DNA of 64,000 nucleotides from Peptococcaceae bacterium (GCA_017656185.1 JACDOK010000002.1:8768-72767); one strand, 5' to 3'; shown: positions 27,650 through 27,744, counted from the stretch's first letter. Translations and numbers: made by a program. The notes: a model not told the origin generated them from the sequence alone.

Positions 27650-27744
27650 GGAGGGAATGGAGCTGGTGCTCCCCGCGGACTGCAAATCCGCTGGCCTTAG
27701 CCGTTAAGGCAGGGGTGGTGTTCGATTCCCACTTCCCTCCTCCA
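27650..27744 (+). tRNA. selenocysteine-type (8-bp acceptor, 4-nt D-loop, long variable arm) tRNA with Cys anticodon GCA and U73: tRNAReC / tRNASec-like tRNACys
   Basis: I folded it by hand.
- Acceptor: GGAGGGAA (27650-57) pairs with TTCCCTCC (27733-40), 8 bp, followed by U73 and an encoded CCA.
- D arm: GGAGC-TGGT-GCTCC.
- Anticodon arm: GCGGA-CTGCAAA-TCCGC, with the anticodon GCA at 27682-84.
- Variable arm: 6 bp, GCCTTA-GCCGT-TAAGGC.
- T arm: loop TTCGATT, with a stem GTGG(U)G/CCCAC that needs one bulged U.

Total length is 95 nt. Confidence 0.8.

What the first reader, a model, noticed from the sequence alone, without database searches (positions are those of the whole stretch)
27650..27744. 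Selenocysteine-shaped tRNA carrying a cysteine anticodon and U73 (tRNAReC-like)
Seen in sequence: the 95-nt gene folds only as a Sec-type cloverleaf.
- It has an 8-bp acceptor stem, a 4-nt D-loop (TGGT) and a 6-bp extra arm.
- Its anticodon loop is CU-GCA-AA (Cys, not UCA).
- The discriminator is U, followed by an encoded CCA.

Established knowledge: U73 plus GCA are the main CysRS identity elements. The 8/5 acceptor/T geometry and long extra arm are what SelB and the Sec machinery recognise. From memory, tRNASec-like tRNACys genes ('tRNAReC', also called selC*) have been reported in clostridial Desulfotomaculum/Pelotomaculum lineages. They were shown heterologously to be charged by CysRS, bound by SelB, and to insert Cys at UGA.

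This copy has an unusual T stem that needs a bulged U. It sits next to selenium-transport genes and a two-UGA gene, so the recoding substrate may be encoded locally.
Basis: partly seen in the sequence, partly recalled or inferred. Interest (0 to 1): 0.85.

Follow-up and report, generated by a model that had tools for sequence, protein, structure and literature searches.

The report
Selenocysteine-shaped cysteine tRNA beside selenium genes
This is a real tRNA gene shaped like the selenocysteine tRNA but carrying the marks of a cysteine tRNA, a kind first described in 2016-2018 and thought to put cysteine where selenocysteine is normally inserted; this copy is a new member from an uncultured Peptococcaceae bacterium, and it sits inside a small block of selenium-handling genes.

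Summary
Window 27650-27744 (+) is a 95-nt tRNA. It has an 8-bp acceptor stem, a UGGU D-loop, a 6-bp extra arm, anticodon GCA, discriminator U73 and an encoded CCA.

ARAGORN calls it tRNA-Cys(GCA). Rfam files it under tRNA-Sec (52.6 bits against a threshold of 47, E 9e-8).

It meets every sequence-level criterion of the known selC* tRNACys / tRNAReC class. Charging by CysRS, binding by SelB and the presence of selABCD could not be tested here.

It is not a decayed copy. Homologues in Desulforudis and Desulfotruncus arcticus keep every helix through compensatory changes. They also share two features:
- a one-nucleotide bulge in the T stem, so the "odd" bulged U is a feature of this group of sequences, not a defect;
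- a one-nucleotide bulge in a 6-bp anticodon stem.

Its D and anticodon arms are almost identical to canonical tRNASec genes found in metagenomes, which points to descent from selC.

The gene lies between a selenium-associated LysR regulator and yedE-yedF. A tRNAReC-like gene also sits beside yedE/yedF in three other lineages, in different arrangements. The neighbouring HesB/IscA-like gene with two in-frame UGA codons is real, but it is not found at those other loci.

Verdict: a new member of a known kind, of moderate interest.

The parts
27650..27744 (+). tRNAReC-like gene (selC* tRNACys), 95 nt. It has an 8-bp acceptor stem, a 5-bp D stem with UGGU loop, and a 6-bp anticodon stem with U43 bulged (C25-G44, then G26-C42 to A30-U38). 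The anticodon is GCA (33-35) and the extra arm is 6 bp. The T stem is 5 bp with U70 bulged. The discriminator is U (window 27741) and CCA is encoded.
   Evidence: ARAGORN; Rfam tRNA-Sec 52.6 bits; RNAfold; pairing and compensatory changes against homologues
26642..27529 (+). LysR-family regulator of the selenium-metabolism-associated subfamily (LysR_Se), 295 aa, ending 120 nt upstream of the tRNA
   Evidence: NCBIfam NF040786 LysR_Sec_metab, 289.6 bits against a cut-off of 250
27530..27649 (+). A/T-rich spacer upstream of the tRNA and the presumed promoter region. No consensus sigma-70 site was found on this strand.
   Evidence: Sequence; promoter scan; no robust motif shared with the other tRNAReC loci
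27981..29066 (+). yedE, a putative selenium transporter of 361 aa, starting 236 nt downstream of the tRNA on the same strand
   Evidence: TIGR04112 seleno_YedE, 477 bits against a cut-off of 200
29047..29262 (+). Short yedF-like gene (TusA domain only, 71 aa, CPEP motif), overlapping the end of yedE
   Evidence: Pfam TusA 64.6 bits; TIGR03527 selenium_YedF N-terminal part, 53.5 bits, below its cut-off of 110
29280..29309 (.). G+C-rich hairpin flanked by A and T runs: a two-way terminator between yedF (+) and the HesB-like gene (-)
   Evidence: Sequence; fold -19.7 kcal/mol, z-score -4.4
29320..29646 (-). HesB/IscA-like gene with two in-frame UGA codons, at 29535-29533 (GIG-U-GGP, the position of the first conserved Cys) and 29343-29341 (HC-U-CLNSKF). 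It is a possible substrate for UGA recoding. NCBI and Logan call only the 57-aa piece between the two UGA codons.
   Evidence: Translation; TIGR00049 80.7 bits against a cut-off of 58.8, aligned over residues 5-106 and so across both UGA codons; Pfam Fe-S_biosyn; many homologous 52-64-aa ORFs start at the same residue and most end at the same Cys
29497..29513 (-). Candidate SECIS-like hairpin (7-bp stem, GGA loop) starting 20 nt after the first UGA. The evidence is weak.
   Evidence: RNAfold. The region as a whole folds no better than shuffles (z-score 0.04).

Best explanation
This is a working gene for a tRNAReC (selC* tRNACys), a descendant of the selenocysteine tRNA that has taken on cysteine identity.

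The proposed mechanism has four steps:
1. CysRS charges the tRNA with cysteine, using U73 and the GCA anticodon. This is inferred from established CysRS identity rules and from published work on homologues.
2. [quoted passage not shown] This is inferred.
3. SelB, bound to a SECIS hairpin, delivers it to in-frame UGA codons, so cysteine goes in where selenocysteine normally would. This has been reported heterologously for both GCA and UCA members of the class. It is not shown for this gene.
4. Because the gene sits between a selenium-associated LysR regulator and the yedE-yedF selenium genes, it is probably expressed as part of the cell's response to selenium supply. That would allow selenoprotein mRNAs to be completed as Cys versions when selenium is short. 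This step is inference from gene order only.
For: **Structure**
- Three independent methods give the Sec-type fold with an 8-bp acceptor stem.
- GCA, U73 and an encoded CCA are read directly from the sequence.

**Not a pseudogene**
- In the window, Desulforudis sp. Tu-874 and Desulfotruncus arcticus copies, every helix is fully paired.
- Compensatory double changes relative to the window copy: 1 (Desulforudis) and 3 (D. arcticus) in the acceptor stem; none and 2 in the anticodon stem; none and 2 in the T stem.
- All three copies share a bulge in the T stem and a bulge in the anticodon stem.

**Descent from selC**
- Two canonical tRNASec genes (UCA, G73) from metagenomes match the window tRNA closely over the D and anticodon arms. 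One shares the string GAGCTGGTGCTCCCCGCGGACT-CAAATCCG exactly, apart from the first anticodon base.

**Class and function in the literature**
- PMC5389517 describes selC* tRNACys with U73 and GCA or UCA, found in Clostridia and other groups, always in genomes with selABCD.
- PMC13582414 cites Vargas-Rodriguez 2018 for SECIS-dependent decoding of UGA as Cys by both anticodon types.
- PMC7609411 reviews the 8-bp acceptor stem as the main determinant for SelB binding and for rejection by EF-Tu.

**Context**
- LysR_Sec_metab and YedE both score above their curated cut-offs. The yedF-like gene passes only the Pfam TusA threshold; its TIGR03527 score is below cut-off.
- tRNAReC-like genes also lie beside yedE/yedF in Desulforudis (divergent orientation, 330 bp apart), a Bacillota MAG, D. 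arcticus (same strand, about 10 nt before the yedE ribosome-binding site and 23 nt before the start codon) and a Dehalococcoidia MAG (between TusA-like genes).
- LysR_Se and YedE are reported almost only in organisms with SelD or that decode Sec (PMC5322559).
- An in-frame-UGA HesB-like gene in the window shows that UGA recoding is in use here.
Against: - There is no expression or charging data for this gene.
- selA, selB, selC, selD and cysS were not found in the window or in about 3.8 kb (left) and 8.4 kb (right) of sequence beyond its ends. The rest of the genome could not be searched.
- A GCA anticodon has to read UGA through a G-A mismatch at the wobble position.
- I could not read the primary functional paper (Vargas-Rodriguez 2018). 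Its results are taken from later papers and from memory.
- The Rfam score (52.6) is well below that of canonical tRNASec genes (70-74 bits).
- Eight yedE loci from relatives, including three of the closest YedE homologues (63-65% identical), have no such tRNA, so the yedE link is patchy.
- No promoter, LysR box or conserved upstream motif was found.
Confidence: 0.7

Rival explanations
1. The tRNA is still a selenocysteine tRNA, but with a sense anticodon. SerRS charges it through the long extra arm, SelA converts Ser to Sec, and SelB inserts Sec at UGU/UGC codons that are followed by a SECIS. This is the mechanism reported for Aeromonas salmonicida tRNASec(GCA).
For: - The fold is Sec-type, with a long extra arm and a D arm with a 4-nt loop.
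- PMC5389517 notes that tRNAs with a long extra arm and either G73 or U73 can be serine acceptors.
- tRNASec species with GCA anticodons are said to recode UGU (recalled from the abstracts of Mukai 2016 and Vargas-Rodriguez 2018, neither read here).
- From memory, a Pelotomaculum tRNAReC lineage reverted to Sec insertion.
Against: - U73 together with GCA are the two strongest CysRS identity elements (PMC5389517, PMC7609411). G73, which SerRS uses, is absent.
- The sixth D-stem pair that favours SelA is a U-C mismatch here.
- The published homologue was reported to be charged by CysRS (from memory, and as cited in PMC13582414).
Confidence: 0.12
2. The gene is a decaying duplicate of selC, or a tRNA-like remnant, that no longer functions in translation.
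For: - The score is only just above the Rfam threshold (52.6 against 47).
- There is a bulge in the T stem and a U9-C24 mismatch in the D arm.
- ARAGORN cannot pair the T stem cleanly.
Against: - All helices pair, with compensatory changes across three lineages whose YedE proteins are each only about 60-63% identical to the window's.
- The T loop UUCGAUU, the anticodon loop CUGCAAA, U73 and CCA are all intact.
- The bulges are themselves conserved features.
Confidence: 0.05
3. The tRNA-shaped element acts mainly in cis or as a regulator. It would be a processing or sensing module in the yedE-yedF transcript, whose cleavage or charging state tunes selenium-transport expression, rather than a decoder of UGA.
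For: - It lies on the same strand just upstream of yedE, both here (236 nt) and in D. arcticus (23 nt before the start codon).
- A regulatory role for a nested tRNASec has been proposed elsewhere (PMC8124441).
Against: - In Desulforudis the tRNA is on the opposite strand to yedE, so co-transcription is not conserved.
- A promoter-like site lies between the tRNA and yedE in the window.
- The full set of tRNA identity features, CCA included, is conserved.
Confidence: 0.08

Closest known systems
tRNAReC / selC* tRNACys (Mukai et al. 2017, NAR, PMC5389517; Vargas-Rodriguez et al. 2018, RNA Biol; the Desulfotomaculum nigrificans member was tested)
   Same: - tRNASec-like fold with an 8-bp acceptor stem and a long extra arm.
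- U73 and a GCA anticodon.
- Host is a clostridial anaerobe of the Peptococcaceae/Desulfotomaculum group.
- A single-nucleotide bulge in the T stem is described for members of the class.
   Different: - It comes from an uncultured, deep-branching Peptococcaceae MAG. The nearest YedE is only 65% identical.
- Here the branch is 8 + 5 bp with a bulge, rather than the 8/4 plus A51a described for deltaproteobacterial members.
- There is no adjacent selB* or cysS*.
- It is embedded in a LysR_Se - yedE - yedF block. I could not check whether that link was already reported for clostridial members.
Canonical bacterial tRNASec (selC, Rfam RF01852)
   Same: - 13-bp acceptor/T branch, 4-nt D loop and long extra arm.
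- D and anticodon arms nearly identical to two metagenomic tRNASec genes.
   Different: - Anticodon GCA rather than UCA, and discriminator U rather than G.
- The D stem has 5 clean pairs, and there is an extra nucleotide in the T stem.
- The score is 52.6 bits against 70-74 for canonical genes.
tRNASec with sense anticodons (for example Aeromonas salmonicida tRNASec-GCA; Mukai et al. 2016, recalled from memory and not read here)
   Same: Sec-type fold with a cysteine anticodon.
   Different: Those keep G73 and serine/Sec identity and insert Sec at UGU. This one has U73, the cysteine discriminator.
allo-tRNAs (8/4 or 9/3; PMC5389517)
   Same: - Found by the same tRNASec-model searches.
- Long extra arm and long acceptor stem.
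   Different: - allo-tRNAs have a 12-bp acceptor branch, and this one has 13.
- They are mostly serine acceptors with varied anticodons and are used by EF-Tu.

Membership tests
tRNAReC / selC* tRNACys | tRNASec-like secondary structure: 8-bp acceptor stem, long extra arm, lengthened anticodon stem | tested here: met
   Rfam tRNA-Sec hit above threshold. [quoted passage not shown] The anticodon stem is 6 bp with one bulge.
tRNAReC / selC* tRNACys | Discriminator base U73 | tested here: met
   U at tRNA position 92 (window 27741), directly before the encoded CCA
tRNAReC / selC* tRNACys | Anticodon GCA or UCA | tested here: met
   GCA in a CUGCAAA loop
tRNAReC / selC* tRNACys | Operational rule of PMC13582414: at least 80 nt, GCA or UCA anticodon, discriminator U, and alignable to a reference tRNAReC | tested here: inconclusive
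   The length (95 nt), anticodon and discriminator criteria are met.
tRNAReC / selC* tRNACys | Same genome also carries canonical selC and selA, selB, selD | not testable with these tools
Indirect support comes from LysR_Se, YedE and a gene with in-frame UGA (PMC5322559).
tRNAReC / selC* tRNACys | Charged with cysteine by CysRS | not testable with these tools
   This needs an aminoacylation assay. Only the identity elements U73 and GCA are seen.
tRNAReC / selC* tRNACys | Bound by SelB and inserts Cys at UGA in a SECIS-dependent way | not testable with these tools
   This needs a binding assay and a recoding assay. The 8-bp acceptor determinant is present.
Canonical bacterial tRNASec (selC) | UCA anticodon and G73 (serine identity) | tested here: not met
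   GCA and U73
Canonical bacterial tRNASec (selC) | 8/5 acceptor/T branch, 6-bp D stem with a 4-nt loop | tested here: inconclusive
   The 8 + 5 bp branch is present but has a bulged U70. The D stem has 5 pairs plus a U9-C24 mismatch, with loop UGGU.
Ordinary tRNACys | 7/5 branch and a short variable loop (class I tRNA) | tested here: not met
   8-bp acceptor stem and a 17-nt extra arm. Rfam clan competition prefers tRNA-Sec to the general tRNA model.
allo-tRNA | 12-bp acceptor branch (8/4 or 9/3) | tested here: not met
   All five bases 79-83 pair, giving 8 + 5 = 13 bp.

The most novel reading that the evidence does not exclude
tRNAReC, the LysR_Se regulator and the yedE-yedF selenium-handling genes form one selenium-responsive module. 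When selenium runs short, the regulator would turn on selenium uptake and, at the same time, a tRNA that lets every selenoprotein mRNA be finished with cysteine. This would be a bacterial, tRNA-based counterpart of the archaeal HrsM switch between Sec and Cys isoenzyme genes.

The recurring adjacency of tRNAReC-like genes to yedE/yedF in at least four lineages, in three different arrangements, is consistent with this. It does not prove it.
Probability: 0.35. Interest if true: 0.6.

Novelty: new member of a known kind. Interest (0 to 1): 0.38.

Why it matters
**For annotation.** In genomes that carry such a tRNA, an in-frame UGA with a SECIS cannot simply be read as selenocysteine, because it may be cysteine. 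The window shows the practical problem: neither gene call retrieved here (NCBI and Logan) recognises the HesB-like selenoprotein gene, and both give only a 57-aa "hypothetical" fragment.

**For biology.** The physiological role of tRNAReC is still open; PMC13582414 says the division of labour with tRNASec is unclear. The repeated linkage to yedE/yedF and to a selenium-associated LysR regulator gives a concrete hypothesis: expression under selenium control. Two cultured organisms carry the same arrangement and could be used to test it, Desulfotruncus arcticus DSM 17038 and Desulforudis sp. Tu-874.

Tried and rejected
The source was identified instead as an NCBI Peptococcaceae MAG, also present in a Logan assembly.
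2. **Looking for selA, selB, selC and selD.** None were found in the window or in about 3.8 kb and 8.4 kb beyond its ends.
3. **Reading Vargas-Rodriguez 2018.** The paper is not held, by DOI or by PMC id. The supplement of Mukai 2017 is not held either.
4. **Homologues of the HesB-like protein through the word-index search.** Both searches returned nothing beyond the protein itself. The exhaustive HMMER search did work, but DNA for those hits could not be fetched, so the codons flanking the short ORFs in other genomes remain unseen.
5. **A shared promoter or LysR box upstream of the tRNA across loci.** Only A/T-rich near-matches turned up, and nothing convincing.
6. **The idea that the HesB-like gene travels with the tRNA.** tblastn found it in none of the 88 other yedE loci held at that point, so the idea was rejected.
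7. **The idea that the selenium block is a foreign island.** There is no composition break.
8. **Eight further yedE loci from relatives.** These were D. kuznetsovii, Desulforamulus, Desulfoscipio, Pelotomaculum PtaB.Bin104 and four MAG or metagenome contigs. None has an adjacent tRNAReC.

Full report
**1. Is the thing there?**

Yes. ARAGORN finds exactly one tRNA in the 64-kb window, at 27650-27744 on the + strand. It is called tRNA-Cys with anticodon GCA and is 95 nt long.

Rfam cmscan at gathering threshold also returns one hit in the whole window, on the same bases. It assigns the gene to tRNA-Sec (RF01852) rather than the general tRNA model: 52.6 bits against a threshold of 47, E 9.4e-8, covering the full model length.

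RNAfold's minimum-energy structure independently contains the 8-bp acceptor stem, the 5-bp D stem with a UGGU loop, and the extra arm. The z-score is -2.4 against shuffles. [quoted passage not shown]

Reading the sequence gives:
- acceptor stem G1-A8 with U84-C91;
- D stem 10-14/19-23;
- anticodon stem C25-G44, bulged U43, then G26-C42 to A30-U38;
- anticodon loop CUGCAAA;
- extra arm G45-A50 with U56-C61;
- T stem G66-C83, U67-A82, G68-C81, G69-C80, bulged U70, G71-C79;
- T loop UUCGAUU;
- discriminator U92, followed by an encoded CCA.

**2. Is it a live gene or a relic?**

I fetched 80 yedE loci from species-representative genomes and scanned them with ARAGORN and with an nhmmer profile. Like tRNAs turned up in four loci:
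- Desulforudis sp. Tu-874 (L002) and a Bacillota MAG (L001), which carry the same 93-nt sequence;
- Desulfotruncus arcticus DSM 17038 (L011; 98 nt). ARAGORN misses this one, and Rfam gives tRNA-Sec 39.9 bits;
- a Dehalococcoidia MAG (L068; 95 nt).

All four have GCA, U73 and an encoded CCA.

I segmented the sequences by hand and checked the pairing by script. In the window, Desulforudis and D. arcticus copies, every helix is fully paired. Relative to the window copy, the compensatory double changes are:

| Helix | Desulforudis | D. arcticus |
|---|---|---|
| Acceptor stem | 1 | 3 |
| Anticodon stem | 0 | 2 |
| T stem | 0 | 2 |

The three copies share an 8-bp acceptor stem and a 6-bp anticodon stem with one bulged pyrimidine on the 3' side. 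They also share a T stem with six nucleotides facing five. The unpaired base is U, C or G, and its position differs between copies. The "unusual" bulged U is therefore a feature of this group of sequences, not damage. Single-nucleotide T-stem bulges are also described for minor Cys and Sec tRNAs of this type (PMC5389517).

**3. Where did it come from?**

A metagenome scan with the D-arm/anticodon-arm string returned three tRNA genes and one match that is not a tRNA. Two are canonical tRNASec genes (UCA, G73; 70 and 74 bits). The third is a further GCA/U73 tRNA.

One of the canonical genes matches the window tRNA through GAGCTGGTGCTCCCCGCGGACT-CAAATCCG, apart from the first anticodon base. The second differs at a few further bases of the anticodon stem. 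The T arm of both differs from the window's by a single inserted U. This fits descent from selC by a change of anticodon and discriminator.

**4. Source and surroundings**

The YedE protein encoded next to the tRNA is 100% identical to an NCBI entry from a "Peptococcaceae bacterium" MAG (contig 179.7 kb, locus tags H0Z39_) and to a Logan assembly of run SRR13776093. The next-best YedE is only 65% identical, so the lineage is deep.

The wider window carries sporulation genes and the ori-proximal Firmicutes gene order (mfd, pth, prs, glmU, spoVG, then ispE). It also has HdrA- and Mrp-type redox genes.

Between spoVG and ispE sits a 3-kb selenium block:
- a LysR regulator of the selenium-associated subfamily (NF040786, 289.6 bits against a cut-off of 250);
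- the tRNA;
- yedE (TIGR04112, 477 bits);
- a short TusA-type yedF;
- a two-way terminator;
- a convergent HesB/IscA-like gene.

Composition shows no break across the block.

According to PMC5322559, LysR_Se and YedE occur almost only in organisms that have SelD or decode Sec. PMC9312934 notes that the archaeal LysR_Se homologue HrsM has been verified experimentally.

**5. Is the link to yedE real?**

A tRNAReC-like gene lies within 2 kb of yedE/yedF in four other loci from three further lineages, and the layout differs each time:
- Desulforudis: divergent from yedE, with a shared 330-bp spacer.
- D. arcticus: same strand, ending about 10 nt before the yedE ribosome-binding site and 23 nt before the start codon.
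- Dehalococcoidia MAG: downstream of yedE, between two TusA/YedF-like genes.

For a single-copy gene in a 3-Mb genome, chance adjacency within 2 kb is roughly one in a thousand per genome. This is a back-of-envelope figure, not a computed statistic. On that basis, repeated adjacency in rearranged forms argues for a functional tie.

The tie is not universal. Eight other yedE-yedF loci from relatives have no such tRNA.

I could not find out whether this linkage was already reported for clostridial members, because the 2018 paper and the 2017 supplement are not held.

**6. The two-UGA gene**

On the minus strand, 29646-29320 encodes a 108-residue HesB/IscA-like protein if both UGA codons are read. 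With Cys placed at the two UGA positions it scores 80.7 bits on TIGR00049 (cut-off 58.8), aligned over residues 5-106 and therefore across both sites. It falls below the cut-offs of the two models for selenoprotein-type HesB relatives.

The first UGA replaces the first conserved Cys (GIG-U-GGP). A 7-bp hairpin begins 20 nt after it, but the region as a whole folds no better than shuffles.

The second UGA sits in HC-U-CLNSKF, which resembles the family's C-terminal CxC..SF motif. The only strong hairpin after it is the terminator, about 35 nt away. Read-through of the second UGA is therefore plausible but not established.

An exhaustive HMMER search with the 57-aa middle piece found many independent 52-64-aa ORFs that start at the same residue, and most of them end at the same Cys. 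One homologue has W at the first UGA position, as a code-4 gene call would give. The first UGA is thus a family feature.

The gene was found at none of the 88 other yedE loci held at that point. Its nearness to the tRNA is not evidence that it is the tRNA's dedicated target. PMC13582414 does report that tRNAReC-like genes are enriched in genomes whose hydrogenases carry two UGA codons (UXXU).

**7. How it most likely works**

The sequence shows a Sec-shaped tRNA with the two strongest CysRS identity marks (U73 and GCA) and the 8-bp acceptor stem. That stem is the main determinant for SelB binding and for rejection by EF-Tu (PMC7609411).

What is inferred is that CysRS charges it, SelB carries it, and it inserts Cys at SECIS-linked UGA codons. 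PMC13582414, citing Vargas-Rodriguez 2018, states that both GCA and UCA members of the class decode UGA as Cys when a SECIS follows. PMC5389517 showed cysteinylation and opal suppression for deltaproteobacterial selC* tRNAs.

The weakest step is a GCA anticodon reading UGA through a G-A wobble mismatch.

A further inference rests on gene order alone: the tRNA is under selenium control together with yedE-yedF.

**8. Rivals**

- **A Sec tRNA with a sense anticodon (Ser, then Sec, at UGU/UGC).** This is possible in principle, because tRNAs with a long extra arm and U73 can be serine acceptors (PMC5389517). However, G73 is absent and the sixth D-stem pair favoured by SelA is a mismatch.
- **A pseudogene.** The covariation makes this unlikely.
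- **A purely cis-acting element of the yedE transcript.** This is at odds with the divergent orientation in Desulforudis.

**9. Comparison with known kinds, and verdict**

All sequence-level criteria of tRNAReC / selC* tRNACys are met. The biochemical criteria and the whole-genome criterion could not be tested. The gene is not a canonical selC (GCA, U73), not an ordinary tRNACys (8-bp acceptor stem, long extra arm) and not an allo-tRNA (13-bp branch, not 12).

It is a new member of a known kind, from an uncultured Peptococcaceae lineage, and the group is one in which the class was first found. A specialist would not be surprised by the tRNA itself. The recurring yedE/yedF/LysR_Se neighbourhood gives a testable idea about when such tRNAs are used, which is still an open question.

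Interest 0.38.

Noticed in passing
window 29320-29646 (-): This is a HesB/IscA-like selenoprotein gene with two in-frame UGA codons. The NCBI and Logan gene calls give only the 57-aa piece between them, as a hypothetical protein (H0Z39_01120). The second UGA lies inside a C-U-C motif that mimics the family's CxC motif, so it may be a second recoded site or simply the stop codon.
   Followed up: partly
L011 5224-5321 (+), Desulfotruncus arcticus DSM 17038: A 98-nt tRNAReC-like gene (GCA, U73, CCA) ends about 10 nt before the yedE ribosome-binding site and 23 nt before the start codon. ARAGORN does not call it, and Rfam scores it below threshold (39.9 bits). Its D arm is of the ordinary 4-bp/8-nt type, so members like this are probably missed by routine annotation.
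   Followed up: partly
L084 1133-1228 (+), metagenome contig Ga0111539_10138284: A 96-nt tRNA with GCA and U73, a Sec-like D arm and a long extra arm. It appears to have only a 7-bp acceptor stem and an unbulged 5-bp T stem. Rfam gives tRNA-Sec 48.7 bits. It may be a different subtype.
   Followed up: no
window 38225-54411 (+): A run of six large ORFs. Five carry SunS-like glycosyltransferase domains, four of those with TPR-type (MamA-like) matches; the sixth has no NCBIfam match but the Logan annotation gives a glycosyltransferase domain. Other glycosyltransferases are interspersed. The repeated paralogous array is unusual.
   Followed up: no
window 14-3058 (-): A 1014-aa HdrA2-like protein with three HdrA-like stretches, next to an MrpORP-type Fe-S carrier. 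HdrA is a known selenoprotein family, but this copy has no in-frame UGA.
   Followed up: no
L089 3548-3627 (+), Pelotomaculum sp. PtaB.Bin104: ARAGORN calls an 80-nt tRNA-Leu(GAG) about 370 nt upstream of yedE. Its acceptor ends pair poorly and there is no CCA. It may be a false call or a degenerate tRNA.
   Followed up: no
L027 4901-4997, L031 3842-3938, L039 6088-6180: Canonical-looking tRNA-Sec (UCA) genes lie within a few kb of yedE in three other loci, so selC itself is also sometimes linked to yedE.
   Followed up: no
L002 9671-10000 and L011 5165-5185: Desulforudis and D. arcticus share a 14-of-16 match (AAAATAAnnGAATAGC) about 45-65 nt upstream of their tRNAReC genes. This may be a common promoter element. 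It is not seen upstream of the window's tRNA.
   Followed up: partly
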